The notes beneath the pieces are model-generated. The model made no database searches. It was not told the origin of the DNA and saw only the letters and a list, made by a program, of their open reading frames with translations. From assembly GCA_000002445.1 (NCBI GenBank), contig CP000069.1:1056001-1120000 (forward strand): 64,000 nucleotides of DNA, read 5' to 3'. The stretch's first letter is position 1, and the number at the start of each line of letters is the position of its first letter. Position numbers and translations under genes: made by a program. Positions 20,932 through 47,082 of this stretch are shown here, piece after piece. The DNA comes from Trypanosoma brucei (Eukaryota).

Positions 20932-21969
20932 TCATTCGAAGTGGTCGTGCTCACCTCCTGCAACTTCACGAGAAAACAAATAACGCGATTCCCACATATA
21001 ATCCTCATCCTCTTCTTCATCGGTGAGTTCATTGGCATTTGTGAAAGAATTACGGTGGCTACGAGGAAACATTCTCTTGCCTTTGTGTTCTCCATAGTCA
21101 AGTGTGAGTTCCTCGCCCACATTAATATCCCTTGCAGCCCGTACAACAACTGTAGCAGTTGGAAGCGACACACAAGCAGCACATGCAGGTGATGAGGCAC
21201 TGTGATTTAACATGTCAACAATTGGTACGATGGCTGACGTTACCGTATCTGTCCTAACGTCATCCGTCCGTATCACCTTCAATTTAAGCACACGAGCACG
21301 CACAACGTAGATGGAAGTAAGAATGGCACTGTCCAATTCGGACGGATGGGCATCGTAAAATCTGTACTCCTCCTGAGGGGCATGTAATAATATGCAATCT
21401 CGCAGATTCCACGCGATCTGCTCGATGGTGGAGTGCACATTTGACCCACACCCACCTTCCGAAAAGTATGGTGCCTCCAAACCATAAGAAAGATACTCAG
21501 TTAAAGGAAGGGAGCTTACGTATAAATCCGCCTTGCGATCTTTTACAGGTCCTAAAGAAGGATTTCCAATACCGACACGAGTTTTGAGTTTCATGACGCT
21601 CTGCCAAAAGTACCGAAGCGCAATGGACACGGCAAGCGACGCCTCCACGGGGGAGAGTGTTAGGGTTACAACTTCATTTTCGTCTGTTGACACGGACGCG
21701 GTAAGTGAAACGCGGTCTTGAGGAAAATCGGGCGACAGTCGCCACAGCCACATCGTTGCCTCGGGGAAAAGTGTGGACCGGTTCCAGCGGCGTAAAGTGC
21801 GAGGGACACGAGACGCATGAGGGAAATAACAGTTACGAGAGGGAACAGAGAGCAACAAATCCCCTTTTCGAAAACAACGGCGCGCGAATAATCCACGGAC
21901 GCTATCATGTCCCCGTCTCGCTTGTAACATAGGTGCCGCACGAGCCCCCAACATGTGAAGCAGCGTCAT
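20932..21969 (-). CDS. SET-domain protein (putative protein lysine methyltransferase)
   Basis: 345-aa ORF with SET N-region (RGLFARRCFRKGDLLLSVP). The C-terminal SET signature is MLNHSASSPACAACV ... GEELTLDYG, i.e. NHSxxPN-like plus ELTxxY. An acidic tail follows. Confidence 0.65.
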   Translation of the reverse strand: MTLLHMLGARAAPMLQARRGHDSVRGLFARRCFRKGDLLLSVPSRNCYFPHASRVPRTLRRWNRSTLFPEATMWLWRLSPDFPQDRVSLTASVSTDENEVVTLTLSPVEASLAVSIALRYFWQSVMKLKTRVGIGNPSLGPVKDRKADLYVSSLPLTEYLSYGLEAPYFSEGGCGSNVHSTIEQIAWNLRDCILLHAPQEEYRFYDAHPSELDSAILTSIYVVRARVLKLKVIRTDDVRTDTVTSAIVPIVDMLNHSASSPACAACVSLPTATVVVRAARDINVGEELTLDYGEHKGKRMFPRSHRNSFTNANELTDEEEDEDYMWESRYLFSREVAGGEHDHFE

Positions 21970-25857: not shown

Positions 25858-27474
25858 CTAATGTTCGGTGCTGTAGTACTTGTTGAGAAATTCTTTTAAC
25901 ACATCCTTTATTATAGTTCTGTCGCTTACCTTCTGCTGTGATCCGTAAATAGTTGATTTAGCGTTGACAGCACCGTGGCGTCGGCCATTCTTCGTTGCAT
26001 CCTCATATTCCGCAAACATTCTGCCACCAATCTCCGTAACGTCCTCTATAAAGCGATCAGCAACTTCCCCAACCGTCTGCAGTAGCGTGACAGAAAATTG
26101 GAGACCAGATGGAAATTGCAAGCAGTTCAGAACCCAACCTCGGCTACGCAACTCTTCGTTTAAAACGAAAATGTCAATTATGTTACTTCCAAAGGCAAAA
26201 ACACAAGCGGTTGGTTTCCCAATAATGTGTATGTAAGGCAGTTTGGATAACGCATCCGTGATCCTAATCCTCGTTTGTACAATCTTCCGGCAGCAGTCCA
26301 CATAACCCTCCTCTCCGAGTCGTACCATTGATGCCCAGGCGCCAGCAATGACGCTTCCATTCTTTGAACCACAAACTGCTGGGGAACAGTACATGCCACC
26401 AGGCCAGTCCGCTACGCAACAGAACTGGTGGGACCGCAACTCCTGTGTTCTGTAGAGAACAGTCGATGTACCTTTGGGAGCAAAACCATACTTGTGTGTA
26501 TCACAACTGATGGAAGTAACCCCGGGGAGGCGGAAGTCCACAACCGGTGCCGGTAACCCCGCCTTCGCCATGAATGGCACAATGAAACCACCCAAACAAC
26601 AGTCAACATGAAGACCAACGTTGTGCCGGCATGCAATCTCTGACAACTCCTCTATGGGATCAATGACACCGTGAGGAAATGTTGGTGCCGATCCTACAAT
26701 AGCGACTGTGTCATATCTGATGTACTTCTCCATTTCTTTCGCGTCAACCTGCTTCGTGATCGGATCGACAGGTATCTTTACAAGATTAATGCCAAAATAT
26801 TCCGCACCCTTATCAAATGCTGGGTGTGCTGTGATGCCGACAATAACAGAAGGTCGCTCGATCCCCCGGCGAGCCCGTCCCCAATCACGATATGCCTTTA
26901 GAGCCATAACAATACTTTCCGTACCCCCCGATGTAACGGTACCACATGCGTCGGGAAGTAGGTGGCCGTTGAACATGTGAACGACCATCGACACCACCTC
27001 AGCCTCCATTTTACGCACAGCCCCAAAAACATCAGAATGCAGCGGGTTGCTCCACGCAAACATCTTAACAACACGGTTCAACAATTTAGTATGGGAATGC
27101 TCTCCATGATACACTGCGCCGCTTAGAGTGCCATCCTCAAAGGTTTTATCGAGATTTTGGTGAAACTCACTAACCAGGTTGATCACCTCCTCATCTGAAA
27201 AACCCTCCTTCGGTAGCCGTTTGGCTTTAAATTCTCCAGGTTTTGACGGCATCTTTATGCCTTCGGCACTTTTCTTTACTTCCTTCTTTATAATGGGCTC
27301 TACAAAGAACCTCACAACGCGCCACTTTGCGGCATGTAACCGCTTAATGATGCTGCCGTCACGTGCCACATAAATTAGGACTTTGGTTGCAAAGATAGCG
27401 CCGACGGTGAGACACACGATGTGTGACGGTCTTTTCCCCTGAAGACTCCTGTCCAAAAAGCATGACAGCGACAT
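25858..27474 (-). CDS. SPL: Sphingosine-1-phosphate lyase (PLP-dependent group II decarboxylase fold)
   Basis: 538-aa ORF with an N-terminal membrane anchor. SPL-type motifs are GTVTSGGTESIVMALKAYRDW and the PLP-lysine segment SISCDTHKYGFAPKGTSTVLYR. Confidence 0.9.
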   Translation of the reverse strand: MSLSCFLDRSLQGKRPSHIVCLTVGAIFATKVLIYVARDGSIIKRLHAAKWRVVRFFVEPIIKKEVKKSAEGIKMPSKPGEFKAKRLPKEGFSDEEVINLVSEFHQNLDKTFEDGTLSGAVYHGEHSHTKLLNRVVKMFAWSNPLHSDVFGAVRKMEAEVVSMVVHMFNGHLLPDACGTVTSGGTESIVMALKAYRDWGRARRGIERPSVIVGITAHPAFDKGAEYFGINLVKIPVDPITKQVDAKEMEKYIRYDTVAIVGSAPTFPHGVIDPIEELSEIACRHNVGLHVDCCLGGFIVPFMAKAGLPAPVVDFRLPGVTSISCDTHKYGFAPKGTSTVLYRTQELRSHQFCCVADWPGGMYCSPAVCGSKNGSVIAGAWASMVRLGEEGYVDCCRKIVQTRIRITDALSKLPYIHIIGKPTACVFAFGSNIIDIFVLNEELRSRGWVLNCLQFPSGLQFSVTLLQTVGEVADRFIEDVTEIGGRMFAEYEDATKNGRRHGAVNAKSTIYGSQQKVSDRTIIKDVLKEFLNKYYSTEH

Positions 27475-28720: not shown

Positions 28721-30406
28721 TCAGCACGACACAATCAAGGATTCCTTGGGGTAGAGGATGAAACAGGGAGATATTCGCGGATGAAGGCTAGTAACCAGAT
28801 TTCCGTAGTACTTTCCATTTACATTAATGCCGAGTGAACCTTCATCTACGCTATATGTGAAGGTCAAAACGTCACCGATACAACACACAGGTAATTCCTT
28901 GAAGGATTGACCAATTCTACCAATGCCTCCATCAACAACACCGAGTTTTGTGGGTTTCCAGTAGAACCCTCCTGGAACAAGGGAAGTGTCTGTCCTTTCA
29001 ACCACACCGACAAATGATTTGTCAAACCCCTTTCCGAGCTGGACACGCCACGTCACACGCCCACGCTCCTCAGGAAACAAGCGCGCAATTTCCTCCACAG
29101 TTTGTTCAGTACGGATACCAATTTGCTTTAAACTATCGGCTTCATTGGGCTGAGCAGTTACATGAACGACACTGTTCAACACCTTCAAGTCAATGCCTTC
29201 ACGCTCCGTTAATGTGAAGCGTCTACCTGTTCGCAGTGGTATCATGCTACCGTCTTGTGCGCAAACATTCAACACTTTTCCCGATTGTGGTCGGGAATCG
29301 TCATCCACTTGTGAATGTGGAATACATCTCCTGAGGTTTGTGTCCCTTCTAATGCCGTTTTTGGAATGTTCTTCCGACCTCAAATCTAGAAATAATTTAA
29401 ATTGAGGTAAACCAAAATCACCAACCTCAAAAAACTTAAAACCAAGCCCTTCTACATCCGGAGTTTCTTCACTGAGGTGGTACGAAAGATATGATCGATT
29501 CTCTAATATCTTATAATCTGAACAACCGCGTTTCATGTGTTGCAGTAGAACAACCGACTCATTAATAGCATTTGCTTTTGCCAACACCCTTCCCCTACAT
29601 TGATTTAAGGAGGCATGGCCGGTATCGCACAACGACCCGAGGGCTTCAAGAAGCTCCTTTTCACGTTGTGACACCATCATCTGTAGTTGGCTAAAGCGTT
29701 CTTTTATTGATTTCTTAACCTCCTCTAAGGAGTCAAAGTATCTTGTCGTCACGACATTTAACTGATTCACCTTCTTTTCTAATCTCTCCTTCTTGTCTGT
29801 CATGAGGGTAATCTCACCGGGAGCTCTATTCCTAAATATGGCAGCCGCCTCTGGTACGCTAATGCTTTCATGACCGTTATGAGGGCCGGTGAGCAAACAA
29901 TATGCGCAGCAAAGACTTTCACAAACCTTGCAGTAAAACTCTAATCGATACTCTTCATGGCCTTGAACGCCGCAGCATCTATAAAGCTTTCGTGTTTCTT
30001 GAGCGTCATCAAGTGGGAAAAATGTATGGTGGCGCTTCGTGGCGTTTTTGTGCACAGCAGTGTTGCAATCCATGCAATAAGCGCCTGCACATTCATCACA
30101 TTGTATCGCAGCAGCAACCTCTTGGCACCATTGGCAAACCGGTTGCTGGGCGAGGCCCTCAACTCTCGCCTTAACGTAAGCCCTAAGTTCATTGTCCACT
30201 AATTTCGGTAATGTTTCATTGTTAATGTGCTCCTGTTTGGTGCTACAAAGAAGGCAAATGAAATCTCTACCTTCCAAGCATTCCAACCTCCCTAGCACAC
30301 AAGATGCGCAAAAGCTGTGTTTGCAGCTGAGCGTGACGGGATCGTGAAGAATTCCAAAACATATCCCGCAGGTAATAGTGACTGGTATCCCCGGAACCTC
30401 CGTCAT
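28721..30406 (-). CDS. RING / B-box1 / B-box2 / coiled-coil / SPRY protein (TRIM-like E3 ligase architecture)
   Basis: 561-aa ORF. C3HC4 RING: CGICFGILHDPVTLSCKHSFCASCV...CLLC. B-box1-like: CQWCQEVAAAIQCDECAGAYCMDCNTAVHKNATKRHH. B-box2: CCGVQGHEEYRLEFYCKVCESLCCAYCLLTGPHNGH. Heptad coiled coil (KKERLEKKVNQLN...LQMMVSQREKELLEAL). C-terminal SPRY-like region (VTWRVQLGKGFDKSFVGVV...LPVCCIGDVLTFTYSVDEGSLGINVNGKYYG). Confidence 0.75.
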   Translation of the reverse strand: MTEVPGIPVTITCGICFGILHDPVTLSCKHSFCASCVLGRLECLEGRDFICLLCSTKQEHINNETLPKLVDNELRAYVKARVEGLAQQPVCQWCQEVAAAIQCDECAGAYCMDCNTAVHKNATKRHHTFFPLDDAQETRKLYRCCGVQGHEEYRLEFYCKVCESLCCAYCLLTGPHNGHESISVPEAAAIFRNRAPGEITLMTDKKERLEKKVNQLNVVTTRYFDSLEEVKKSIKERFSQLQMMVSQREKELLEALGSLCDTGHASLNQCRGRVLAKANAINESVVLLQHMKRGCSDYKILENRSYLSYHLSEETPDVEGLGFKFFEVGDFGLPQFKLFLDLRSEEHSKNGIRRDTNLRRCIPHSQVDDDSRPQSGKVLNVCAQDGSMIPLRTGRRFTLTEREGIDLKVLNSVVHVTAQPNEADSLKQIGIRTEQTVEEIARLFPEERGRVTWRVQLGKGFDKSFVGVVERTDTSLVPGGFYWKPTKLGVVDGGIGRIGQSFKELPVCCIGDVLTFTYSVDEGSLGINVNGKYYGNLVTSLHPRISPCFILYPKESLIVSC

Positions 30407-31818: not shown

Positions 31819-32370
31819 TTACGGGGCACAAGTGCTAAGTATCCATGCCACGCCTTCCTCCAGTCCTGCTCCCGTTTTGGCGCTACAGCCTTGGATGTGC
31901 CACTTGCGGTCTCGGAAGTCATGCAAATGAAGGCATTCTGCGATCGCCTGAGCATCTTTTGCGGTTGCAAGATCTTGTTTATTCGCAAACACCAAAACCG
32001 GAGCACCTTCAATGCCCTTTAGAACATCCACAAATGCAGCGTGAGATTCTTCGAGTCGGCGGTGGTCAGAAGAATCCACCACGTACATAATGCAGTCCGT
32101 GTTGCTGTAGTAATCCTGCCAATAGTCTCGCAGCGCCCGCTGGCCACCGAGATCACATAACTTAGCCCGTTTATTCCCACGTGTGAGTGTTTTGATATTA
32201 AACCCTTGCGTTGGTCCCTCAGGTGCGGCGTGGGAAACTTTTCCCTCCACAGGCACCTCGTCTTCTCCCAATGCATTCAGTACGGTAGTCTTTCCAGCGT
32301 TGTCAAGTCCCACTATCAGTACACGCGGCTCATTATCACGTTTCGCACGGCTACGGATCCCCTTAAGCAT
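31819..32370 (-). CDS. ADP-ribosylation-factor-like GTPase (ARL2/ARL3 subfamily)
   Basis: G1 LIVGLDNAGKTTVLNAL, PTQGFNIKTL, G3 DLGGQRALRDYWQDYY, G4 FANKQDL, and HIQGCSAKTGAGLEEGVAWIL closely parallel ARL2/ARL3. The ORF as given starts at 32517, but its first 49 codons (CLCACVCVCVCV) are translation of the upstream (CA)n repeat. Start assigned to Met at 32368-32370 (MLKGIRSRAK). Confidence 0.85.
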   Translation of the reverse strand: MLKGIRSRAKRDNEPRVLIVGLDNAGKTTVLNALGEDEVPVEGKVSHAAPEGPTQGFNIKTLTRGNKRAKLCDLGGQRALRDYWQDYYSNTDCIMYVVDSSDHRRLEESHAAFVDVLKGIEGAPVLVFANKQDLATAKDAQAIAECLHLHDFRDRKWHIQGCSAKTGAGLEEGVAWILSTCAP

Positions 32371-32448
32371 TATCAAATAGATTACCCTTATTCCTCTTTC
32401 TTTTTTCTTCTTTTTTATTGTTACCTTGGTGCTCCTCACAGACACAAG

Positions 32449-32476
32449 CACACACACACACACACACACACACGCA
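32449..32476. repeat. (CA)n microsatellite immediately 5' of ARL gene
   Basis: Direct read: cacacacacacacacacacacacgcacaa. Confidence 0.9.
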
Positions 32477-33106
32477 CAAAGACAGAGAGGCACAAACAAA
32501 CAGTAAAACAGATACACAATTAAGCGGGACTACCTTTGAGAATACGATGCCCCCTGTAATGTTCTTTCTCCTTGTTCTCATCATCACATCTGTGAGTCTT
32601 CTTCACGCTGTGCAGAAGAAAGTGTTCGATCTTCACACAGTCAAAAATGCTTCACAAATATTAGTAACTGTAACGTTCGAATAGGAGATCAAACAATAAA
32701 TACAAAAAAATTAAAAAATAAAAGAATGAAACACCAACACACGAAATACGGTAGAGAAGAAAAAAAACATAAAATCAAATTTAAAAAAGACGATAAAACA
32801 CAAAAGTATTTTCCGGAAACCAGAGTAAACAAGTCGACAATTTTTTGCGACCAGTTAAGAGAAAAAGGTCATTATAATGTGATGTGCAGCTTCACTTTCC
32901 AAAAAAAAAAAGATCAGAATGCTGCAAGCATTTCTCCTTCGGATAGAAGCGCTTGTGTTCTGTAATGACACGCAAATGTCGGATGTACTGAATAATAAAG
33001 GAGCCAGTGATGCAAAAATATCCTCACTCCATTTAATATCCTCTTTGTCCTGGCGGGCAAAATCAGGAGGAAATGGAAGTACAATTGTTATAAAGCATTG
33101 AGTTAC

Positions 33107-34476: not shown

Positions 34477-37400
34477 CTACAACCCCTCCTCGAATACGCC
34501 GCGCTCTTGCTGGATCCACCGAGAAAGAAACACACCATCACACTGCCTTCTGGATGTGTCACCCCGCTGGGGACGAGAAGCGCTTCCCTCCACAGACAAA
34601 TTCGTGCCGTCACTGTTGTTATCATCAGCATCACCGCCCTCCCCACCTGAAGCCGCAGACCCGCACCTTTCAACGCAACCAACGAACATGTGGTAAAGTG
34701 CCCATAGCGGCATGTCACATTGCTCTATAACCCGCGGTAGAAGTTCCTTGCTTATTTTCTTCGCCTCCTCCACGGTGTTATCAGGTTGTGTTACGGGAAC
34801 CGTAACATCGAAGTAACACCCCATCAGCACTCCCCTCACGGTAATAAACACAAGTTGCCGCTCTAGCATGCACTGGGGTGCAAACACATCATCTACCACA
34901 AAAGAGAACTCCACGCCTTTCGCCAAGAGTGCCGTGATCAACGGTATCTCACGCAACTCCTCTTCAAGACATTTGGAAAAGAGATCTTTCGATAGAAGAA
35001 CGTTGGCGTATTTTTTTGACGGGAAAATAGAATCTTCCTCAATGCAAACATCATAAAAGACCCCTGTTGAGATACACACCACGCCCCTCTGCGATATCTC
35101 CACTCTCGTTGGATACGGGCGTGGTGCGAACAAATAACTGTAGCCATCCAACCGCACACTCAAGTGCCCGTTAGCTAAGGAAGCCACATTTACAAGGACT
35201 TGATGTCTTTCATCTTTTCCCTGCAAGCAAACAGCACCAATGCGCACTGTATTGAAATTACCCGTAGCACCAAAACCTTGAGTTGATAAAGTGACTAAGA
35301 CGTCCCCTTCGATTCCATCCAACGTGAAGGTACCCCGTCCTGTCAGCCGACGCTCAACATACTCCAACTGGAGCTCAAGAGAGAAGTACATAGGAATACC
35401 TTCCATCCAGCTCACATCAACACCTTTTTGCAATGACCCAACAAGTTTGTCGCTCAGTGTAACAAGACTTGCAAGCGGCATTTCAGACACTTCCATGGAT
35501 AGCGACTCAAAATTCCGGTTTAGTGCAACACGCTGAAGGCGACAAACAAAACTACCGCAGGCTGGCACCACCAATGTACCACTCAAGTTAACAGTCGGTT
35601 GTAGGAAAGACTGTGGCTGGTGTCCTAGCACGGCGTTAAAGTTAATGCTTAAATCACTGATAAAGGCATCAGGAAAGACATCCCCGATATCATATCGCGC
35701 ACTGGGTGACATTCCCGAGATCAAAATCTGTTCATCAGGGTAACCAATGCTGCCGGCCAACGTCAATTCAATAATGGGTTCCGTCCCCTCACCACTATCA
35801 AATTGCGTGTCATACGATACAAAGTTTATTCTCTTATGCTCCGTTACTGGCAATGCCATTTCCGATGGATCAACATTCGTAGCTTTCATACAAAGCTCAA
35901 TCTCAAACACCATATATCCAATCACCAAACCTCGTAAGCCAAAGTTGATATCATTCCCTGGTAACGTGAACCGAACGGTTGCATTAGGGCTATCCATCGT
36001 TGGCGCAGAAAGAATTATTTCCGTTTTCGTATTTTCCAAAAACTGCAGGGTGTACAGCAGTAGCAGTTTGTCGAAAATGGGACATGGGCAAGTTGCGAGG
36101 GAGGTGCGGCGGATAAAATTCACGCCAGGAAACAGCTGCATTTGGTGGTTGAGGGGTAATGGAGAGCACCCAGGAAACGTCAGTCGGTACCTCGGCGTGA
36201 ACACTAACGTATTGAGTGTAAACGCAATGAGTACCGGTTGACCGGAGAACCCGACATGATAGAGTAGAGGTAGTCTAGGGAAGTGTTCAATGGCCAGCCA
36301 GTTGATTTCCTTGATTTCCACTAATACCATCACCGACGCAACGTGCTCATTTAATGCATTGATTTTTTTTGTAACCAGCAAGTCCGTGTTTCTCTGTACG
36401 TGCAGAGACATGCTCCACAAAATGATTACGAAAGCACGAGCATTATGGAATCCGTAAAAGCTCTCTGCTAGCGTACCACCCTCCACAATCTTTGGATAAA
36501 ACCACGAAACGCTTTCCTTTTCGATGGAAAAATCACGAGACACCAACATTGGATTAGCAATTAACATGTTCAGCTTATCCACGCCACAGGAGTACCTTTC
36601 TGCTACCGCATGCAGTAAATACATGAAATCGTTTCCGGAGCGCCTTTCCGTGGATATGTACTTGTTGTCCGGAAGGTTCTTTGCCTTGGACGCATTCCTA
36701 AACACTTTACTCTGAAACGCAATATATTCTGATTTAAACCGCATGAAGTATTGGGCGATACGCCCATGGTGTTCAATGTCCTCAGGCTCACGGAGGCCAC
36801 TAACAACGCTCCTTGCTTGATCGTAGCCTGCACGGCACTGTTGACAAAATTCGTCTTCATGGCTATAGGCAGCATTTTTCCACGTCTCGTACATGCTGTC
36901 ACTGAGTGGACACCGTAAAAGGGATGATAATTTTGTCCTTGCGCCTTTCTCGAGTGACCAAAACACTTCAAAAAGCTCAAGAAATGACGCTTTGGGGATC
37001 CCCTTGAATCTCACTCGCCAGTATGATGTTGGAGTGTCTACAAAGAAGGACAATGAGTTTCCTTTTGGCGAGAAGGGTCTCTCCGCCACGGGGACGTAAT
37101 CTACTCCATTGTTACTTGTCTCAACAACTATAACCAACACCTCTTCTTCCATCTCTATAGCTTTAACGATCTCCTCCTGTTGAGCAGTTGAAGCCTTACT
37201 GATTTTCTTCCCGGTTTTCTTGGGAGCTCGTGGAGAAGAAGCGGAAGTCACCTCCAATGCTGCTAATTTTTCTAATTCCGCCTCTGCGTCGGGATTGGTT
37301 TCAACACGGCCGTTGACAAACACCTGCTTGAAATGTGGAGATGTATCGCTGTCAAAAAACCATGAAACAGAGGCTTCCGTTTCCATCCCACGCGAACGCA

Positions 37401-40400
37401 ATACAACAGTTTTTGCATTGTTATCAGACAAAAATATCGGCAACCGCACTTCATCGAATTTTTCTACTGCCATTTTCACATCGGGCGCCTTGGAGAAGTC
37501 GTAGCGAACGAATGCTTTACCGATAAAAGAATACCATTCAGCTTGGACATCGCACTCCTTTTTCCAACTTATAAAAGGCCCTGATTTAGAACTGAAACAC
37601 GTTTCCTCCAGATTATCTTCTGCAAGAACGGGTCGAAGCCGCCAGTGCGACGACATTCCTCGTGGTTTCCACCCTTGGCGCACCTTCCGAGAATCTGCAC
37701 TGTCATCGTTCCTCAGCGTAGCAACCGCTTGCCACGAGGAACCGTCAACAGAACGCTTTTCAACTACAAATGAAGAAAGTGGCGGCAACTCCGCCTCAAC
37801 AGCAACTACCTCGGTACAATTTCCCCTCAGGTTCAGGTCCTTTCCACTTGAGCCGGCTGCAATATCTCCCTTTGAGTCCACATGGTGGTAAAGGGTTGGT
37901 TTTGGGGTGTCGAATCGTATGCTACATATTCTTAGCGGCGAAGTTCCCACACGCTGTGTGACCCGAAGTCGCCAATACTGACAACAATCGCTTACATCCC
38001 ATGCTGCCTGCGCTAAGTTACCCCGAAGATTAAACGTTACCCCAACACCTCGCCACTCTACCGCATCGGAGCTACACTCAACCACGAACGCAGTGTAGGG
38101 ACTTTTGTTTTCATGGCATATCATGCAGACACCAACAACTTGCGTGGCGTCTTGCTTGCTGTCAAGAACTATTGACGACCCAACTTCTGCCGGCACAACC
38201 ACGTTTGCCACAGTATCACCGGAGGACCCCACTTCACACAGTACGAAGGGATCCAATAAACAGCTTAGATACAAAGAGTCCTCCAAATAAACGGACGGAC
38301 CCGTATACTCGAAGAAAGTTAAGTTTTCGTATATCGTGCTTTGTTCCCGTGCCTCCAGTTCTACGCTCCAGAATCGACGGGGTCCCCTGGGATGCCATGC
38401 AGCTCTGAAATAGTGGTCATGACTGTGCCACGTGCCGCATACCTCCCACTGTTCACCATTTGAACTGCAGGATATGATCCACATCACAGGTCGCGGTTTT
38501 CCAACACAAATACATGAAAACTCCATGACGTCAGACGGTTCCCTTTCCCCATAGTCTACTATGAGGTGCTGTCTGACAACCTTAGTAGCCCCGCTCTCGT
38601 CGACGGGGTTTTCGAACGCAACTGTGACCTTATCATCAACGAATAGCGAAGACATGGGTCCATTCAATGTACCGCTGCAAGCAACTCTTACCGGCAAAAC
38701 TCTGGAAGAAACCGAAGAAACTGTAAGAAGCAACATATGGAAATACAATACGGGATATTCGTGCCGACTGTCCACCTCCTCACATTCCAAACTGAAACGC
38801 CAGAACCTCCGTGAATGGTGTCCAACCCTCTCACTCCCCCAAATTGTCCGACACCGACTAGTTATTTGATGATGTCTTCCCACCGTTTGCCATAGAACAC
38901 CATCATCGCTGCACTCCACCACCCAGTTATCGTCGCATGGTTCTGAGCTCTGCATAGTCACCCCAACCAACAGCTTTTGGTAATTTTTAAAGTCAAGATT
39001 GATGACACAGTCGTGCCGCCTTATTCCCCATCTCAAATACCACGTAACGGGGAAAAATACTTCTGATTGAGAGACAGGCTTAGCCTCCGTTAGGTTAGTT
39101 ATCCCTTGTGTCTCCACGTCAAGCGCTGCCACAAGGTCCTCACAAAATGTATAAAAACGGGTTGGATATTTCGGGAACGAAGCGGCGCAGAGAATCTTTT
39201 TACCCTCAAAGGCAGGATGACGGAAATAGGTTGAGTTGCTCAACCTCATTGGTCCCTCCACAAGTTCCGATGTTACGATGTTCCAGCGAAGAACATGAGG
39301 GGACTTGATAACAAAGACCTCCTCCGGTTGGCTCCATATCTGGACAATATTCTCCACTTCCTCCATCTTCCATGGCAAATCTTTAAACATCGTCGCAGCG
39401 CTTTGAACACCACCACCCCCAGATGCGAATGCCCCCTTCTCAATGTCCCATAAAATAACATGACTTCCGCTAATGAACGCGACGATGTTGGGGGTCCTCA
39501 CGTTGGGATAAAATGCCGCGTTAACCCCTCTCAGGAATGGTGCAGGCAGTGTATCAAATGCAGGATGGGCTGCTATCGGTACCGCACGATGGCCAACCAC
39601 AACACCATTGGAACAATCTAATTCAACAAAGTGAGGGCCGCAGAACAACAGGCAGAAATCCCCATTTGGAAGAAGAGGAAGTATGCAATGCCGCTCGAAC
39701 CAACCTGCACTTGTCGACGTTGTGAAAACGGCACCAGGTGTCAAACAGTTTAATATATCCCTTGCTGGCGAAAGGAGACAGGGTGCATCGATTGTCACCA
39801 ACGTAGACTCCAATGGCGGTAGTGCAACGGTGGGATCGACAGGTATAGTTCCAACAACGTGCATTACCTCGTACAGAAGAAGACGCACAACGCCCGTGCC
39901 AACAGGCAGTTTGCTGACGAAGCGCACACGCCAAACGCACCCTACATGCGATACGCCCCAACAAACAGGTGTGATTGATGATGTAATAAAGAAATGTGCG
40001 TGTCTTACATACGCGATCCCGTCATCACTACTCTCGAGAAGGACTTCAACGGGCGCGACCTGAAGAACTCGGGGTTCTATGCACGACAGATTCAGTACAA
40101 TCACGAGCGCGCCGAAGGCGCAGGGATTCATAGGATCGTACCGAACCTCGATAGTCTGGGAAGGTTCTCCCAACAAACTCTCCTCAGTTTGTACAAACAC
40201 CGCACTTTCACACAGGAGCGGTGCGACCGTGGTAAAGTTATGGGGTAACACAACTGACAGAAGGTTTTCTGCGCACTCCGCACTCTGAGTAAGAGTACTT
40301 GTAACTGTACACTCCCTGTGAACGCTTCGATGAGCATCACATAAAATAACATCGTGAACACTGCACTCTGTTTCCAGCACCGTTCTACATATACTGCCAA

Positions 40401-43400
40401 GTGCTGTCATCGTATTTTGTCGAAACGCCATCGGCAGTCTCGACAAAACGGAAGAAGGAATGGTCTCAAACCGAACCTCGCACTTCGCGTCAGGGGAGTA
40501 AATGAAGTTTTTTACGGTTGCAACACGTCCACAGCGACCAATAAGCATCACCACCATCTCCTTCTCATGTGTAATGGAGCTCCCCTTTCCGTCACCGTTA
40601 TTGTTGTTTGCACTGATCTTTGCCGTTGTCCCCACCAAACTCTCTTCCCTTGTAGACCTAATACTCCCCATGCTCGCCCAATTATTGTTATTATTATCCT
40701 CTTGCTCTTGGCTCTCTTCCGTTTCACCACTTTTCTCCCACATCAGCATCGTCGCCATTGGGCCGTGAGGAAACACTTTCGACAGTGACGGTCCGAATAT
40801 GGTTTCACCTGCGTTACCCTTCCCATGATCCCCAACTCGCATCGGTCCTCCAACAAGGCACCTTTCCGTGATGTTGAACACAACGTATTCAAGCTGACAG
40901 AAGAAAAACACGAGCGGCGTGTTTGCCACCGGAACAGCGGCATTAATTCCTGAAAGAAACTTTTCTGGTAGCGATCGAAACTGTTTGTGACACCTCAATT
41001 TGAATAAACCACCACTACACCTCTGGCGGTAGCTATCCCACTCCAACCACTCCTCACCACAAAAAAAATATGCAGTTCGTGGGTTGACTGGGGAATTGAA
41101 GGCACAATCAAATCCACCCATAAAAGGAAAACTGTTCAGCCCCAACGTCTTGGACATGGGTTGTAAGGGAATATTCATGGAACGATTCTCCACGTTGAAA
41201 CAACACACGTGGTCTTTGATAAAAAACAGAGCATATTCGGTCAAATTTCCATCCTTTGTGCAAAGACAAATGGAATGCCATGTTTCACCGATGAGTGATG
41301 GCGGAACAACCTCAGGTTCCTGTGCTAACGCCCGTGCAGTAATCCCTTTTTCCATTTGTGCTGACAAGGGAAGCACCAACCGACCTCCGTTGGGTTTAGA
41401 ACGTCCCCCAGACTTCCTTTGCGATTCCGCCTCTTTCCTCATAAAGGACCACATACCCAACAAATCCTCATGAAATGGATCTTGTGTTATGATAGGGGCA
41501 TCTTTCTTGCGGTTCGCCGGCCTGGACACACGCTTAGTCAAACGTTTTTTTTCCACACGATCTACGGGAAGAGACGAAGACAAGGTGAGCATAGTTGTAG
41601 ACTCTGAGAGTAACCCCATAACTTGATTCCACTCAATATCACCGCTGCGTTCCCGGACATGTTCACGAGTCGCCGTCCCACTGCCCATCTGTAGACGTGC
41701 TGGATAGGGTGGAAGATTCACCAAATCATGTAGAAGCCGAGCAACCCATTCCACTGCGTTAGGACCAAGTACCTCGCTCAGGTAAAAGAGAACAAGGGAG
41801 CGAGTACTTTCAGTGAGACAAAGCTGTCGCAGCGTTCGCAGAAGTTTCCATTGACTTTGCGAAATATGGCACTCACCCGTGCGGTATGCAAAGAAAAGTA
41901 ACGCAGGTGGAAACCGAATAGCTTCCGAGAAAACTCTCGAGCCTTCAAGCCCCCCACCGTCGGTTGACAGGCAAATATCGCTCATGTAGTTGAAAGCTTC
42001 ATGGAGCACTTGACAGTTCTCCACTATGCCAATAACTTTCTTCGGAAGGTACCGCGAGGCGTGCAGTGAAATCTTCTCACCGTTGCTCAAAGCAAAGACA
42101 TTGGAATCAACAAAAATACACGCGTCACTGGATACATAGAGGTTAAAAACACTGCGGGGCACGTAAAAGAATCCACGATTCCCCACATTCTCCCCGAAGT
42201 TGCTTTGGCAGATAACATAGATGGTGTTGTGTATGTTTGTCTGCCCAACGACCTTAAGGGTCGTGTGAAATGAACGACCCATGGGCGATTCATTTGGTAT
42301 CACACCGTTCGGCAGTGCGAGCCACTCTACGCAAAAGCGCATGACGATAAGTATTGATCGCCGCATTTTACGAAACGCCCACAAAACAGCCCGTGTGTTG
42401 TCAAACAAGTTCGAGTGAGGGCCATCGACAATAAACAACCCTTGACGACGTCGCGAAAATGCAGCTCGAACCAAAGTCTCCATGTCAGCTACCTTACACC
42501 ACTTTTCCCATAGATAATAAAAGTCTCGTGTGGGTCTTTCTTTTCGACGGTTAAACGGTGCCGATTCCACAGGAAGGCAACCGACCATCAGCGCCACTTC
42601 ACACGCATGCCGCAACTCCATTCCCAAAGAAGTGGGAGGTATCTTAGCTAAGAAACGACCAACCGCATAGATCATATATGGATCAATAGCCACACCCTCG
42701 ATATCCGTCATCGCGCTCGCAACAGTAAGTGCACAACAGGTGTCTTCCCCAGCCGCATCGTCAATGTAGGCAGAAGCGAAGTTGATAATAGAAAAATCGT
42801 CATTTGATAACTGGGTCAACGGAATATCCAGCGAGGATAAAAGACTTATGCCGGTCATACTGTTCGTAACCTGCACACCGCCATAGCTATACAACCCAAA
42901 TCGTACAAGATGCTGCACGCACAGTTGAGAGCAAGGTTTGAACCTTTGGTGTTTTATCATTACTCTTGACAAGTGAAGAAGCGCCGACGGTCGCAGATAA
43001 CAGTCCACCGTTACGTCATCATGGAGTTGAGATAAGAATCTATACGCACCATTGGACAAACATAGAGTGTGATTTCCACATACGCTACACGCATCCGCAT
43101 CGTCATGGTTCTTCCTATGCATCTCCTCAGCGTCACTGCTGTCAGCTGACGAGCTGTCGAAACACCGTGTGGCTCCCGATGAGGCAGACGATAACGGGTT
43201 TACCACTTTCGTACTGCCCTCAGCGTTCAATTTTTCTGAATTTACGCGCTTTCTCTCCAGTCTAGCGACATTGTCTACCAGACAGCGCTGCAACGTTGTA
43301 TTCCGAGGACAAGTGCCCTTAACACCGTGGAGGTGCTCGCTCAACACACTCTCAATCATGATCACGATATCATCGCTCAGTTTATTCTTGCATTCATAAG

Positions 43401-44145
43401 AGCATATGAATAACACACCATTGTTCGTATCACAGCATACGAGCAAGGTCCGAAACAAAACTCCCAGCGCAACCTCGCAGTAACTCTCTCCACGATTCAT
43501 GAGTGCCTTCGAAAGCGCCAGGAGAATCTGTCCTTCAACCCTTTGGTCAGGGGAATAGATGACAGCCCTGTTGCAAACCAAACAACGGGAAGCCACTAAC
43601 TTCATGTTCGCATTGGAAAAGCACTGCCGTTGTATAGACAGGTACTTGGGTGTGTCCTTGTCCAATAGGATTTCCGTCAAGCAATTGTTTTTTAATGCGA
43701 GGGCGAAGAGCTTACGTCCACTGCTCACACTCAATGGAACGTCACGTAGGTCAATCTTTTGCAATGTTTCGTGAAAACCAAGGTACTGCAACATTTGAGC
43801 GATATCTTCCGCAGTCAACTTACATCCTCTCATGGACAAACTCGCAACGGAAAGGCGCTGTAGTGTTGTGAGAATAGGGATGATACCGCGTTCACCCAAG
43901 TAGCCGTTATCAAAGTTGAAAACTGTCGACCCGGCTCGTAATTGCTTTACAAACGCGTTGTTTACATTTATTCCAATGCGCGCACACTCCGAACGGTAAA
44001 ACCTCTCAGCTTCACTGACTGAATGGATCCGATTCGAAGTGGTTGAGCTTGAAGGCGAAGGTGGAGCTAAGGGATCCACTGTCTCCTCACTGGGGGACGC
44101 GGCCAAACACTTAGTGGCCCCTTTCAAGTTTTCTTCCCCTTGCAT
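34477..44145 (-). CDS. Giant (3222-aa) multidomain protein: N-terminal RNI-like LRR, long central region with six copies of a conserved repeat module, Gly/Asp-rich C-terminus
   Basis: Single uninterrupted 9.67-kb ORF co-oriented with its neighbours. Leu-rich RNI-like segment at aa ~90-170 (LTTLQRLSVASLSMRGCKLTAEDIAQMLQYLGFHETLQKIDLRDVPL). Repeat module at aa ~1369-2385. No catalytic motif recognised. Confidence 0.8.
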   Translation of the reverse strand: MQGEENLKGATKCLAASPSEETVDPLAPPSPSSSTTSNRIHSVSEAERFYRSECARIGINVNNAFVKQLRAGSTVFNFDNGYLGERGIIPILTTLQRLSVASLSMRGCKLTAEDIAQMLQYLGFHETLQKIDLRDVPLSVSSGRKLFALALKNNCLTEILLDKDTPKYLSIQRQCFSNANMKLVASRCLVCNRAVIYSPDQRVEGQILLALSKALMNRGESYCEVALGVLFRTLLVCCDTNNGVLFICSYECKNKLSDDIVIMIESVLSEHLHGVKGTCPRNTTLQRCLVDNVARLERKRVNSEKLNAEGSTKVVNPLSSASSGATRCFDSSSADSSDAEEMHRKNHDDADACSVCGNHTLCLSNGAYRFLSQLHDDVTVDCYLRPSALLHLSRVMIKHQRFKPCSQLCVQHLVRFGLYSYGGVQVTNSMTGISLLSSLDIPLTQLSNDDFSIINFASAYIDDAAGEDTCCALTVASAMTDIEGVAIDPYMIYAVGRFLAKIPPTSLGMELRHACEVALMVGCLPVESAPFNRRKERPTRDFYYLWEKWCKVADMETLVRAAFSRRRQGLFIVDGPHSNLFDNTRAVLWAFRKMRRSILIVMRFCVEWLALPNGVIPNESPMGRSFHTTLKVVGQTNIHNTIYVICQSNFGENVGNRGFFYVPRSVFNLYVSSDACIFVDSNVFALSNGEKISLHASRYLPKKVIGIVENCQVLHEAFNYMSDICLSTDGGGLEGSRVFSEAIRFPPALLFFAYRTGECHISQSQWKLLRTLRQLCLTESTRSLVLFYLSEVLGPNAVEWVARLLHDLVNLPPYPARLQMGSGTATREHVRERSGDIEWNQVMGLLSESTTMLTLSSSLPVDRVEKKRLTKRVSRPANRKKDAPIITQDPFHEDLLGMWSFMRKEAESQRKSGGRSKPNGGRLVLPLSAQMEKGITARALAQEPEVVPPSLIGETWHSICLCTKDGNLTEYALFFIKDHVCCFNVENRSMNIPLQPMSKTLGLNSFPFMGGFDCAFNSPVNPRTAYFFCGEEWLEWDSYRQRCSGGLFKLRCHKQFRSLPEKFLSGINAAVPVANTPLVFFFCQLEYVVFNITERCLVGGPMRVGDHGKGNAGETIFGPSLSKVFPHGPMATMLMWEKSGETEESQEQEDNNNNNWASMGSIRSTREESLVGTTAKISANNNNGDGKGSSITHEKEMVVMLIGRCGRVATVKNFIYSPDAKCEVRFETIPSSVLSRLPMAFRQNTMTALGSICRTVLETECSVHDVILCDAHRSVHRECTVTSTLTQSAECAENLLSVVLPHNFTTVAPLLCESAVFVQTEESLLGEPSQTIEVRYDPMNPCAFGALVIVLNLSCIEPRVLQVAPVEVLLESSDDGIAYVRHAHFFITSSITPVCWGVSHVGCVWRVRFVSKLPVGTGVVRLLLYEVMHVVGTIPVDPTVALPPLESTLVTIDAPCLLSPARDILNCLTPGAVFTTSTSAGWFERHCILPLLPNGDFCLLFCGPHFVELDCSNGVVVGHRAVPIAAHPAFDTLPAPFLRGVNAAFYPNVRTPNIVAFISGSHVILWDIEKGAFASGGGGVQSAATMFKDLPWKMEEVENIVQIWSQPEEVFVIKSPHVLRWNIVTSELVEGPMRLSNSTYFRHPAFEGKKILCAASFPKYPTRFYTFCEDLVAALDVETQGITNLTEAKPVSQSEVFFPVTWYLRWGIRRHDCVINLDFKNYQKLLVGVTMQSSEPCDDNWVVECSDDGVLWQTVGRHHQITSRCRTIWGSERVGHHSRRFWRFSLECEEVDSRHEYPVLYFHMLLLTVSSVSSRVLPVRVACSGTLNGPMSSLFVDDKVTVAFENPVDESGATKVVRQHLIVDYGEREPSDVMEFSCICVGKPRPVMWIISCSSNGEQWEVCGTWHSHDHYFRAAWHPRGPRRFWSVELEAREQSTIYENLTFFEYTGPSVYLEDSLYLSCLLDPFVLCEVGSSGDTVANVVVPAEVGSSIVLDSKQDATQVVGVCMICHENKSPYTAFVVECSSDAVEWRGVGVTFNLRGNLAQAAWDVSDCCQYWRLRVTQRVGTSPLRICSIRFDTPKPTLYHHVDSKGDIAAGSSGKDLNLRGNCTEVVAVEAELPPLSSFVVEKRSVDGSSWQAVATLRNDDSADSRKVRQGWKPRGMSSHWRLRPVLAEDNLEETCFSSKSGPFISWKKECDVQAEWYSFIGKAFVRYDFSKAPDVKMAVEKFDEVRLPIFLSDNNAKTVVLRSRGMETEASVSWFFDSDTSPHFKQVFVNGRVETNPDAEAELEKLAALEVTSASSPRAPKKTGKKISKASTAQQEEIVKAIEMEEEVLVIVVETSNNGVDYVPVAERPFSPKGNSLSFFVDTPTSYWRVRFKGIPKASFLELFEVFWSLEKGARTKLSSLLRCPLSDSMYETWKNAAYSHEDEFCQQCRAGYDQARSVVSGLREPEDIEHHGRIAQYFMRFKSEYIAFQSKVFRNASKAKNLPDNKYISTERRSGNDFMYLLHAVAERYSCGVDKLNMLIANPMLVSRDFSIEKESVSWFYPKIVEGGTLAESFYGFHNARAFVIILWSMSLHVQRNTDLLVTKKINALNEHVASVMVLVEIKEINWLAIEHFPRLPLLYHVGFSGQPVLIAFTLNTLVFTPRYRLTFPGCSPLPLNHQMQLFPGVNFIRRTSLATCPCPIFDKLLLLYTLQFLENTKTEIILSAPTMDSPNATVRFTLPGNDINFGLRGLVIGYMVFEIELCMKATNVDPSEMALPVTEHKRINFVSYDTQFDSGEGTEPIIELTLAGSIGYPDEQILISGMSPSARYDIGDVFPDAFISDLSINFNAVLGHQPQSFLQPTVNLSGTLVVPACGSFVCRLQRVALNRNFESLSMEVSEMPLASLVTLSDKLVGSLQKGVDVSWMEGIPMYFSLELQLEYVERRLTGRGTFTLDGIEGDVLVTLSTQGFGATGNFNTVRIGAVCLQGKDERHQVLVNVASLANGHLSVRLDGYSYLFAPRPYPTRVEISQRGVVCISTGVFYDVCIEEDSIFPSKKYANVLLSKDLFSKCLEEELREIPLITALLAKGVEFSFVVDDVFAPQCMLERQLVFITVRGVLMGCYFDVTVPVTQPDNTVEEAKKISKELLPRVIEQCDMPLWALYHMFVGCVERCGSAASGGEGGDADDNNSDGTNLSVEGSASRPQRGDTSRRQCDGVFLSRWIQQERGVFEEGL
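36993..40041 (-). repeat. Six intragenic protein-level repeats of a module marked by [LV]VE-x-S-x-[DN]G-x-x-W ... ~32 aa ... [FYHV]W[RS][VLF][RSE][LFV]
   Basis: Six copies by manual residue counting, at aa 1371, 1743, 1891, 2021, 2124 and 2341. They are: ESSDDGIAYV...VWRVRFVS, VVECSDDGVLWQTVG...FWRFSLEC, IISCSSNGEQWEVCG...FWSVELEA, VVECSSDAVEWRGVG...YWRLRVTQ, VVEKRSVDGSSWQAVA...HWRLRPV and VVETSNNGVDYVPVA...YWRVRFKG. Spacing is 110-370 aa. Confidence 0.6.
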
Positions 44146-45786: not shown

Positions 45787-47082
45787 TCATGGGGCTTGTA
45801 AAGGTGGCACTTTATCCCGTGGAAGCCTGATAGTCGGCGAAACCAAAATGAAAGGTTTGGGAAGCGTACCCGCTACCGGGGAGAGAAACGAAAAGAATGT
45901 TTCCCCTACCTCCAGAAGAACAATAAACCCGGCAACATTTATATCGTTGACTGCTTCTAGGGAATCTGTCCAAGAAACAGCAGCTAAACTAAGAGGTTCA
46001 ACGTCCTTCCAGGAAAGAGGTTCCAACTTTAAAGCGTGGATGAAGTGAACGTCCTTTACGTAACAAACAGCTCTGTAAGACAATAAAGGGGTACGTTTCG
46101 TCCCTTGAAAGTAACTTACAATTTGCTCTGCACGCCAGCTGTCGCGAACGTTACCCTTGCGCTTGAACACTCCCGTTTGCTTTGGGTATTTGAGAAAAAT
46201 GATTTTCTCGTCGATCACTGCATTACGCAAGGTTTCTGTAAGTTTGTTACCTGAACCACAGACTACAACATGCGTGATACTGAACACGGAAAGTAGCTGA
46301 AAAAGGAGGTCAAGCCCCATGTCAGTTACCCACCCCATAGTATTCACAATAACGCCACCGGCAGCAAATTTTGGGGTGGCCAAACTAAAAGATATAATTC
46401 CCCGTGCCAACGATGCACATAGATCCAAATATCGTCCTCGAGTGGAAGCATTTACGGTTTTATCACCAAAGAAGGCCGTTAATGGCATCACCGTATTAAA
46501 CCCCTCATCAATCGGTAAATAGTTATCAACAAACGCTGTTGCAACACTTCCTGGGCAGGTAATACCTTGTTGCCCAACATCCACGTCCACAAGGGCAACC
46601 CCATGAACCTGCGATGCGACTGCCATATTCGCAAGTGAGCGGCACAAACTACTCTTCCCGGTATTCACGTCACCAACTACGAGGACACGTGGGCCCCATG
46701 GCCCCTCCTTCAAAGAGTTTGATGACGTGCCTCCAGGATTGGTGTCGTTTAAAGACGGTACACCGCGTTTGCTGGCTTCATGGCGCGCGAAATCAAGCAC
46801 AGCATGGATGTCATACACATCAGTACGAATATATGTTACCACGCTGGTGAAATCCCCTCCCACGTGAAGTCGACACGCCACAGGAGATACCACTGGTATG
46901 CTACACATGGAAAAGTCGTAGCGGGTATTTTTTTTTAGAGGTGCACCAAAAATGGTCGCTGCTCCATCCGTAAGTACAACATACCCCGAACTACGAAAGC
47001 GGATTTTTAGTTCTTTGCGCTCCAAATTGAATTCTTCAGTGCGACAATTAGAAGACATGCCGCTGCTATTCACCACGGCCAA
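45787..47082 (-). CDS. CLP1: Clp1-family polynucleotide 5'-hydroxyl kinase (mRNA 3'-end cleavage factor Clp1 homologue)
   Basis: 431-aa ORF. The P-loop and flanking context (GPRVLVVGDVNTGKSSLCRSLANMAVASQVHGVALVDVDVGQQGITCPGSV) aligns with the Clp1 Walker A region (PRVMVVGPTDVGKSTVCR...YVELDVGQGS) recalled from memory. Confidence 0.8.
   Translation of the reverse strand: MAVVNSSGMSSNCRTEEFNLERKELKIRFRSSGYVVLTDGAATIFGAPLKKNTRYDFSMCSIPVVSPVACRLHVGGDFTSVVTYIRTDVYDIHAVLDFARHEASKRGVPSLNDTNPGGTSSNSLKEGPWGPRVLVVGDVNTGKSSLCRSLANMAVASQVHGVALVDVDVGQQGITCPGSVATAFVDNYLPIDEGFNTVMPLTAFFGDKTVNASTRGRYLDLCASLARGIISFSLATPKFAAGGVIVNTMGWVTDMGLDLLFQLLSVFSITHVVVCGSGNKLTETLRNAVIDEKIIFLKYPKQTGVFKRKGNVRDSWRAEQIVSYFQGTKRTPLLSYRAVCYVKDVHFIHALKLEPLSWKDVEPLSLAAVSWTDSLEAVNDINVAGFIVLLEVGETFFSFLSPVAGTLPKPFILVSPTIRLPRDKVPPLQAP

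What the first reader, a model, noticed from the sequence alone, without database searches (positions are those of the whole stretch)
28721..30406. Complete TRIM-like architecture (RING - B-box1 - B-box2 - coiled coil - SPRY) in a kinetoplastid
All five modules of a class-IV tripartite-motif E3 ligase can be read in order: C3HC4 RING, two B-box-type Zn-binding clusters, a heptad coiled coil and a C-terminal SPRY-like beta-sandwich. TRIM proteins are generally regarded as a metazoan innovation. A protist protein with the full RBCC-SPRY arrangement would be either convergent domain shuffling or evidence for a much older origin. Functionally it would be a candidate E3 ligase with a SPRY substrate-recognition domain.
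Basis: partly seen in the sequence, partly recalled or inferred. Interest (0 to 1): 0.6.

Follow-up and report, generated by a model that had tools for sequence, protein, structure and literature searches.

The report
TRIM-type RING–B-box–SPRY protein in trypanosomes
This Trypanosoma brucei gene does encode a protein with the full domain layout of an animal TRIM ubiquitin ligase (RING, two B-boxes, coiled coil, SPRY), and the same protein occurs across trypanosomes, Leishmania, diplonemids and a euglenid, so this layout is not confined to animals.

The parts
28721..30406 (-). Complete coding sequence, 561 aa plus the stop codon at 28721-28723. Inferred gene ID Tb927.6.3640.
   Evidence: ORF list. 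100% identity to a T. brucei TREU927 protein. Flanked by SPL Tb927.6.3630 and TbArl3C Tb927.6.3650.
30245..30370 (-). C3HC4 RING finger, residues 13-54.
   Evidence: Pfam zf-C3HC4_2 and zf-C3HC4 score above their cut-offs. Seven of the eight zinc-ligand positions are invariant in 22 orthologues and H30 is kept in 21 of 22. I/L/M15, V/I37 and mostly P52 are conserved. Position 55 is never R or K.
30026..30136 (-). B-box type 1, residues 91-127.
   Evidence: Ligand pattern present in 18/18 members. ANCHR-like B-box 22.6 bits. The MID1 tandem B-box aligns profile positions 90-187 to chain residues 2-99 at E 3.8e-13.
29870..29974 (-). B-box type 2, residues 145-179. This is the most conserved block of the protein (GHEEYraEFYC..C..CCAYCLQVGPH..H).
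   Evidence: PF00643 34.9 bits against a cut-off of 24.1. Pattern present in 17/18 members. Conservation seen.
29471..29857 (-). Coiled-coil region, residues 184-312: two long helices plus a shorter third helix.
   Evidence: PML_CC and TRIM_CC Pfam hits. Model helices. Collinear alignment to the TRIM3, TRIM28 and TRIM25 coiled coils. Periodicity analysis.
29372..29455 (-). Conserved motif of unknown role after the coiled coil, residues about 318-345, with invariant G320, F323, G329, L340 and D341.
   Evidence: Alignment. Low pLDDT in the monomer model.
29243..29371 (-). Variable, predicted-disordered linker, residues about 346-388.
   Evidence: pLDDT 26-40. Length-variable and unconserved in the alignment.
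28724..29239 (-). SPRY domain, residues 390-561.

Best explanation
The gene encodes a euglenozoan TRIM-type (RBCC) protein: RING, B-box1, B-box2, a coiled coil of about 130 residues, a flexible linker and a C-terminal SPRY domain.

Shown here: the domain identities, their order, their collinearity with animal TRIM RBCC modules, and the conservation of the whole arrangement across Kinetoplastea, Diplonemea and a euglenid.

Inferred by analogy with structurally characterised TRIMs: the protein dimerises through an antiparallel coiled coil. The SPRY domains bind one or more still unknown target proteins. The RING recruits an E2~ubiquitin conjugate to modify that target or the protein itself. The very strongly conserved B-box2 probably controls self-association or RING activity.

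On origin, the most economical reading has two parts. The RBCC module is an old, pre-metazoan unit, as already argued from TRIM37-like proteins. The SPRY was joined to it in the euglenozoan stem independently of the animal TRIM-SPRY fusions.
For: [quoted passage not shown]
- Single-stretch alignment of the family RBCC profile to TRIM28 (profile 16-315 to chain 13-321, E 1.6e-18) and to TRIM25 (13-309 to 10-313, E 1.8e-17), plus TRIM3 at 2e-20.
- Zinc-ligand patterns conserved across the family.
- The best Foldseek hit for the full-length model is TRIM72 over 460 alignment columns.
- The RING residues expected to contact the E2 are conserved: I/L/M15, V/I37 and mostly P52.
- 22 full-length orthologues at 33-53% identity, and more distant members in Entosiphon, Lacrimia and a diplonemid-like contig.
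Against: - No activity, dimerisation or substrate data exist, and no paper in the library mentions the gene.
- The residue after the last RING cysteine, the 'linchpin' that is Arg in many active TRIM RINGs (my own knowledge), is S, G, N, T or A in all 22 orthologues and never basic.
- Only 7-12 residues precede the first RING cysteine in many orthologues. The N-terminal helix used for RING dimerisation in several TRIMs is therefore probably absent. This is an inference.
- T. brucei and T. congolense have CLLC instead of CPLC.
- One relative, P0038, has no match to the RING pattern.
Confidence: 0.65

Rival explanations
1. A non-catalytic assembly scaffold. The B-boxes and coiled coil build a structural lattice or organelle-associated complex, the SPRY acts as a docking module, and the RING has little or no ligase activity.
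For: - Toxoplasma Pcr4/Pcr5 are tandem-B-box coiled-coil proteins that form antiparallel heterodimers and are structural parts of the preconoidal rings.
- They match this family's B1-B2-CC profile at E 1.6e-12.
- B-box2 is the most conserved block of the protein.
- There is no basic linchpin residue.
- The relative P0038 shows no match to the RING pattern.
Against: - All eight RING zinc-ligand positions and the hydrophobic E2-contact positions are conserved across about 20 species. That is hard to explain if the RING were functionless.
- Pcr4/Pcr5 have no RING at all, so they are not a like-for-like analogue.
Confidence: 0.2
2. An E3 for SUMO or another ubiquitin-like modifier rather than ubiquitin, as proposed for TRIM28 and PML.
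For: TRIM28 and PML RBCC modules are among the collinear matches (E 1.6e-18 and 2.4e-9). Like this protein, they carry R-B1-B2-CC. The linchpin position is non-basic.
Against: The similarity covers the generic RBCC module and is equally strong to the ubiquitin ligases TRIM25, TRIM3 and TRIM72. No SUMO-interaction feature was tested or seen.
Confidence: 0.07
3. Origin rival. The complete RBCC-SPRY arrangement descends vertically from an ancestor shared by Euglenozoa and animals, so TRIM-SPRY ligases are far older than animals.
For: - The RBCC is collinear with animal TRIMs and has differentiated B-box1 and B-box2 in the animal order.
- The best match for the full-length model is a TRIM with SPRY, TRIM72.
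Against: - No member was found outside Euglenozoa in any search run here.
- The SPRY has no detectable sequence affinity to TRIM SPRYs.
- SPRY is a promiscuous, repeatedly shuffled domain (general knowledge).
- Marín 2012 found only MATH-type TRIMs outside animals.
Confidence: 0.15
4. Origin rival. The gene was acquired horizontally from an animal host, or the sequence is a contaminant.
For: Sardiello et al. 2008 raised horizontal transfer as a possibility for protist B-box proteins in general.
Against: - Codon usage and GC3 resemble the neighbouring genes.
- The gene is embedded in a 1.6-Mb chromosome between native genes.
- Orthologues occur in free-living or non-vertebrate-associated lineages such as Entosiphon and the diplonemids Lacrimia and Artemidia.
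- The best single-sequence E-values to any animal TRIM are only about 1e-7.
Confidence: 0.02

Closest known systems
Animal TRIM/RBCC E3 ligases with R-B1-B2-CC modules (TRIM25, TRIM28/KAP1, PML, MID1)
   Same: Same order and spacing of RING, B-box1, B-box2 and coiled coil. The family profile aligns in one stretch over about 300 residues to TRIM28 and TRIM25 (E about 1e-18) and to the MID1 tandem B-box. TRIM25 also ends in an SPRY-type domain.
   Different: Sequence identity is very low; single-sequence E-values are only about 1e-7. The first ligand gap of B-box2 is x4 rather than x2. There is no basic linchpin residue. The SPRY is not detectably related in sequence to the PRYSPRY of TRIM25. 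The lineage is Euglenozoa, not Metazoa.
Vertebrate class IV TRIMs (Marín subfamily G; TRIM5, TRIM21, TRIM72 and others) with a B30.2 (PRY/SPRY) domain
   Same: RBCC followed directly by an SPRY-fold domain. TRIM72 is the best Foldseek match for the full-length model.
TRIM37-like 'Subfamily A' (RING-B-box-(CC)-MATH), the only TRIM group previously reported outside animals (Marín 2012, PMC3503706)
   Same: A non-metazoan RING-B-box protein. It establishes that the RBCC module predates animals, and it is reported from excavates among other groups.
   Different: The C-terminal domain here is SPRY, not MATH; there is no MATH hit. Here there are two differentiated B-boxes. Marín deduced an ancestral RBM structure with a single B-box.
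Toxoplasma/Plasmodium Pcr4 and Pcr5 (tandem B-box plus antiparallel coiled coil; PDB 9ya0)
   Same: A non-metazoan B-box1-B-box2-coiled-coil module that matches this family's profile at E 1.6e-12 over positions 89-268.
   Different: These proteins have no RING and no C-terminal SPRY in the same chain. They are structural components of the preconoidal rings.
Stand-alone SPRY substrate receptors (RanBP9/RanBP10/Gid1 of the CTLH/GID E3, SPSB1-4, HERC1 SPRY)
   Different: In those systems the SPRY and the catalytic RING, HECT or cullin module lie in different architectures. Here the SPRY is fused to an RBCC module.

Membership tests
TRIM / RBCC family | N-terminal C3HC4 RING with all eight zinc ligands | tested here: met
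   PF13923 28.2 bits (cut-off 27) and PF00097 22.6 bits (cut-off 21). C13, C16, C28, C33, C36, C51 and C54 are invariant in 22 orthologues, and H30 is kept in 21 of 22.
TRIM / RBCC family | At least one B-box following the RING; here both B-box1 and B-box2, in that order | tested here: met
   PF00643 34.9 bits against a cut-off of 24.1, with two stretches. B-box1 pattern in 18/18 members and B-box2 pattern in 17/18, with a non-canonical x4 first gap. The MID1 tandem B-box aligns at E 3.8e-13.
TRIM / RBCC family | Long coiled coil immediately after B-box2 | tested here: met
   PML_CC 23.2 bits against a cut-off of 23. Predicted helices 184-312. Alignment through the TRIM3, TRIM28 and TRIM25 coiled coils. 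Periodicity evidence is only modest.
TRIM / RBCC family | The three modules form one collinear unit with conserved spacing | tested here: met
   Single HMMER stretch from profile positions 16-315 to TRIM28 residues 13-321, and from 13-309 to TRIM25 residues 10-313.
TRIM / RBCC family | Antiparallel coiled-coil homodimer | not testable with these tools
   Only a monomer model could be made. It breaks the long helix at residues 241-244 and folds it back, as expected when the partner chain is missing.
TRIM / RBCC family | RING-dependent E3 ligase activity | not testable with these tools
   E2-contact hydrophobic positions are conserved, but the linchpin position is never R or K.
SPRY domain (PF00622) | Pfam model scores above its gathering threshold | tested here: not met
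   No SPRY hit for the T. brucei protein at E<=10. Three of 15 orthologues give sub-threshold hits, the best at E 0.032.
SPRY domain (PF00622) | SPRY beta-sandwich fold | tested here: met
SPRY domain (PF00622) | Sequence-profile link to recognised SPRY proteins | tested here: met
   The family C-terminal profile hits Anaeramoeba proteins with Pfam SPRY (E 3e-32 and 6e-23) at E 3e-13 and 3e-12 in a 1.8-billion-protein library. 22 of 29 out-of-family hits carry PF00622. The top PDB profile hit is the HERC1 SPRY at E 0.083.
Class IV TRIM (B30.2 = PRY + SPRY; Marín subfamily G) | PRY motif preceding the SPRY | tested here: not met
   No PRY (PF13765) hit at E<=10. N-terminal strands that complete the sandwich are present in the model, as in all SPRY structures.
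Class IV TRIM (B30.2 = PRY + SPRY; Marín subfamily G) | Sequence clustering with the vertebrate subfamily (Marín used within-subfamily E <= 1e-22) | tested here: not met
   The best single-sequence E-value to any TRIM in the PDB is 1.1e-7, to TRIM72. The criterion is quoted.
TRIM37-like Subfamily A | C-terminal MATH/TRAF domain | tested here: not met
   No MATH hit. The C-terminal domain is SPRY.
Class I TRIM (MID1, TRIM9, TRIM67) | COS box and FN3 domain between the coiled coil and the SPRY | tested here: not met
   No FN3 or COS hit. Residues 313-389 are short and mostly predicted disordered.

The most novel reading that the evidence does not exclude
The complete RING-B-box1-B-box2-coiled-coil-SPRY arrangement, including the differentiation into two B-box types that Sardiello et al. 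2008 placed in early metazoans, was already present in a common ancestor of Discoba and animals. That would be close to the last eukaryotic common ancestor. The euglenozoan protein would then be a surviving representative of an ancestral TRIM-SPRY ligase.
Probability: 0.15. Interest if true: 0.7.

Novelty: new member of a known kind. Interest (0 to 1): 0.45.

Why it matters
TRIM ligases are usually presented as an animal family. The one systematic study that found them elsewhere reported only the TRIM37-like MATH type.

A conserved, single-copy-looking R-B1-B2-CC-SPRY protein across Euglenozoa has two consequences:
1. Either the architecture is much older than animals, or the RBCC-plus-SPRY combination has been assembled at least twice. 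Either answer is informative about why that combination works.
2. It gives trypanosome and Leishmania biology an uncharacterised candidate E3 ligase with a defined substrate-binding domain, in a genetically tractable organism with far fewer TRIM-type genes than vertebrates.

It is not a new kind of system. The gene is already in public databases, labelled only as 'zinc finger protein'.

Tried and rejected
- A Foldseek search of the full-length model against AFDB50, meant to give the taxonomic spread of the architecture, could not run because the library was unavailable.
- A widened full-length profile search of the 5.8-billion-protein index returned only the same kinetoplastid orthologues. A search with the divergent member P0051 returned only one diplonemid relative. 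Presence outside Euglenozoa therefore remains untested rather than excluded.
- The exhaustive HMMER search used only the SPRY profile. It does not reach animal TRIM SPRYs, so it cannot detect RBCC-SPRY proteins whose SPRY is divergent.
- Literature searches found nothing on Tb927.6.3640, on TRIM-like proteins in kinetoplastids or on Toxoplasma PCR14. PMC11384636, on T. cruzi and TRIMs, concerns DNA-level similarity of an antigen gene and is unrelated.
- Contamination or recent horizontal transfer was rejected on codon usage, synteny and phyletic spread.
- A strictly continuous heptad repeat across residues 184-312 is not supported (p 0.67 for the whole region). Periodicity is local and averages 3.6 residues.

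Full report
**What is there.** Window 28721-30406 holds one uninterrupted minus-strand ORF of 561 codons that starts with ATG. The translation is 100% identical to a Trypanosoma brucei brucei TREU927 protein on a 1,618,915-bp contig, annotated only as 'hypothetical protein, conserved' or 'zinc finger protein'. All large ORFs in the window lie on the same strand, as expected for a kinetoplastid polycistronic unit. The immediate neighbours are unrelated housekeeping genes. A PLP-dependent enzyme lies at 25858-27474 and an Arf-like GTPase at 31819-32517. These correspond to sphingosine-1-phosphate lyase Tb927.6.3630 (PMC7237492) and TbArl3C Tb927.6.3650. The gene is therefore inferred to be Tb927.6.3640. 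No paper in the library mentions that identifier. GC3 (0.44) and relative codon usage lie within the spread of neighbouring genes.

**The RBCC half.**
- Pfam calls a C3HC4 RING at residues 13-54 (PF13923 28.2 bits, PF00097 22.6 bits, both above their cut-offs).
- It calls a B-box (PF00643, 34.9 bits against 24.1) with two stretches, the best at residues 145-183.
- It calls an ANCHR-like B-box at 90-128 (22.6 bits, just under its cut-off) and the PML-type coiled coil at 215-311 (23.2 bits against 23).
- Across 18 family members, the first box always has C-x2-C-x8-C-x2-C-x4-C-x2-C-x4-H-x7-H, which is B-box1 type.
- The second box has C-x4-H-x8-C-x2-[CD]-x4-C-x2-C-x5-H-x2-H in 17 of 18, which is B-box2 type. 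The one departure from the canonical pattern is x4 instead of x2 in the first gap.
- A profile of residues 1-320 aligns in a single stretch to the whole RBCC of TRIM28/KAP1 (profile 16-315 to chain 13-321, E 1.6e-18) and of TRIM25 (13-309 to 10-313, E 1.8e-17).
- The same profile matches TRIM3 (E 2e-20), TRIM72 (2.6e-18), the MID1 tandem B-box (3.8e-13), PML RING-B1-B2 (2.4e-9) and the B1-B2-CC of Toxoplasma PCR5 (1.6e-12) (repeated with the full-length profile).

The tripartite motif is therefore present as one collinear unit, not as a chance juxtaposition of three zinc-binding clusters.

**The coiled coil.** It is supported by those alignments and by the AlphaFold2 model, which has helices at 184-239, 246-294 and 297-312. 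Hydrophobic periodicity is heptad-like only within each helix (p 0.014 and 0.043). Over the family it peaks at 3.6 residues. That fits a coiled coil with mixed repeat lengths, but also any amphipathic helix.

**The SPRY half.** Pfam does not report SPRY for the T. brucei protein even at E<=10. Three of 15 orthologues give sub-threshold hits (best E 0.032). A profile of the C-terminal domain has the HERC1 SPRY as its top PDB match at a non-significant E 0.083. Three stronger tests settle the matter:
1. With 22 orthologues as the alignment, AlphaFold2 models residues 390-561 at pLDDT about 90. The isolated domain gives pLDDT 90.1 and pTM 0.86.
3. An exhaustive HMMER search of 1.84 billion representative proteins with the domain profile finds 54 proteins at E<=1e-3. 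Two Anaeramoeba proteins hit at E 3e-13 and 3e-12 and carry canonical Pfam SPRY (E 3e-32 and 6e-23). Of 29 out-of-family hits scanned, 22 have PF00622.

The domain is a genuine but divergent SPRY. The PRY motif is not detected.

**Distribution.** Full-length orthologues at 33-53% identity exist in Trypanosoma, Leishmania, Leptomonas, Porcisia, Novymonas and Angomonas, and in unnamed environmental or transcriptome assemblies. More distant members with the same layout are:
- P0050 from the euglenid Entosiphon sulcatum, with RING, B-box and a C-terminal match at E 5e-9.
- P0051, with RING, B1, B2, CC and SPRY, on a 502-kb contig with same-strand genes.
- P0076 from the diplonemid Lacrimia lanifica, a 33%-identical relative of P0051.
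- P0037, a fragment from the diplonemid Artemidia motanka.

The family is therefore at least as old as Euglenozoa. I found no member outside Euglenozoa, but my searches were not designed to exclude that (see the 'tried and rejected' section).

**How it probably works.** Only the anatomy is shown. By analogy with solved TRIMs, I infer an antiparallel coiled-coil dimer that presents two SPRY domains for target binding and two RING-B-box heads for E2~ubiquitin recruitment. In favour of a working RING, all eight zinc-ligand positions and the hydrophobic positions expected to contact the E2 (I/L/M15, V/I37, mostly P52) are conserved.

Three observations argue for caution:
- The residue after the last RING cysteine is S, G, N, T or A in all 22 orthologues and never Arg or Lys. 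From my own knowledge, many active TRIM RINGs have an Arg 'linchpin' there.
- The N-terminal extension before the RING is very short, so the four-helix-bundle mode of RING dimerisation is doubtful.
- B-box2, not the RING, is the most conserved block.

A scaffold role like that of Toxoplasma Pcr4/Pcr5 is therefore a serious rival. A conserved motif at residues 318-345 (invariant G320, F323, G329, L340, D341) is modelled with low confidence in the monomer and is unexplained. It may need the dimer context.

**Comparison with what is known.**
- Sardiello et al. [quoted passage not shown] They mentioned protist B-boxes only as unpublished observations.
- Marín 2012 showed that TRIM37-like RING-B-box-MATH proteins occur in excavates, alveolates, plants, fungi and others, and treated every other subfamily as animal-specific, with class IV as vertebrate-only.
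- The present protein meets every testable defining feature of the TRIM/RBCC family.
- It fails the tests for class IV membership: no PRY, and no sequence clustering with that subfamily.
- It fails the test for Subfamily A (no MATH) and for class I (no COS or FN3).
- Its SPRY shows no special affinity to TRIM SPRYs. None of the 29 out-of-family hits has a RING or B-box. The PRYSPRY of TRIM25 adds no significant stretch although its RBCC matches.

I therefore read it as a separate, Euglenozoa-wide TRIM subfamily. In this reading an ancient RBCC module acquired an SPRY independently of the animal fusions. Vertical descent from an ancestral RBCC-SPRY protein is not excluded; I put it at about 0.15.

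**Verdict.** Its interpretation is supported, with three caveats: 'class IV' is descriptive only, non-metazoan TRIMs are already documented, and ligase activity is inferred. This is a new member, or lineage-specific subfamily, of a known kind of protein. It is of moderate interest for TRIM evolution and as an uncharacterised candidate E3 ligase in trypanosomatid parasites.

Noticed in passing
window 56893-58866 and 59452-61425 (minus strand): Two tandem 657-aa HSP70 genes with identical Pfam scores (885.7 bits each), so this looks like a recent or homogenised tandem duplication.
   Followed up: partly
window 34477-44145 (minus strand): A 3222-aa ORF with no Pfam family at E<=1e-5. It is a very large protein with no recognisable domain.
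   Followed up: partly
window 29372-29455 (protein residues about 318-345): A conserved motif between the coiled coil and the SPRY (invariant G320, F323, G329, L340, D341) is modelled at pLDDT 40-47 in the monomer. Its role is unexplained; it may be a dimer-dependent element.
   Followed up: partly
P0026 (EukProt protein, 4046 aa), residues 3881-4045: The family-type SPRY domain (E 5.6e-59 to the kinetoplastid profile) sits at the extreme C-terminus of a 4046-aa predicted protein. This is either a different architecture or a fused gene model.
   Followed up: no
P0038 (ENA, 515 aa): A family relative with B-box1, B-box2, coiled coil and the SPRY-like C-terminus but no match to the RING pattern. 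It may be a RING-less variant.
   Followed up: partly
P0022 (Angomonas deanei orthologue), last ~80 residues: The sequence departs from the otherwise well-conserved SPRY alignment and ends early. It looks like a frameshift or an assembly error in that record.
   Followed up: no
window 30245-30253 (protein residues 52-54): T. brucei and T. congolense have CLLC where most orthologues have CPLC at the last RING ligand pair. Some other members also carry L or S at this position, so the E2-contact proline has been lost in several members of the family.
   Followed up: partly
L001 (ENA ERZ25333188 ctg535, 21.6 kb around P0051): An unidentified 502-kb eukaryotic contig with a mostly same-strand gene array. 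Its RBCC-SPRY gene is 33% identical to a Lacrimia lanifica protein, so it probably comes from a diplonemid-related genome.
   Followed up: partly
window 159-3749, 10024-11925, 12311-15097, 20932-21969, 45787-47082, 47443-48273, 55468-56436: Other genes in the polycistronic unit: a P4-type phospholipid flippase, a tubulin-tyrosine-ligase family protein, a DEAD-box helicase, a SET-domain protein, CLP1, PTH2 and a DnaJ protein. None has an evident functional link to the TRIM-like gene.
   Followed up: partly
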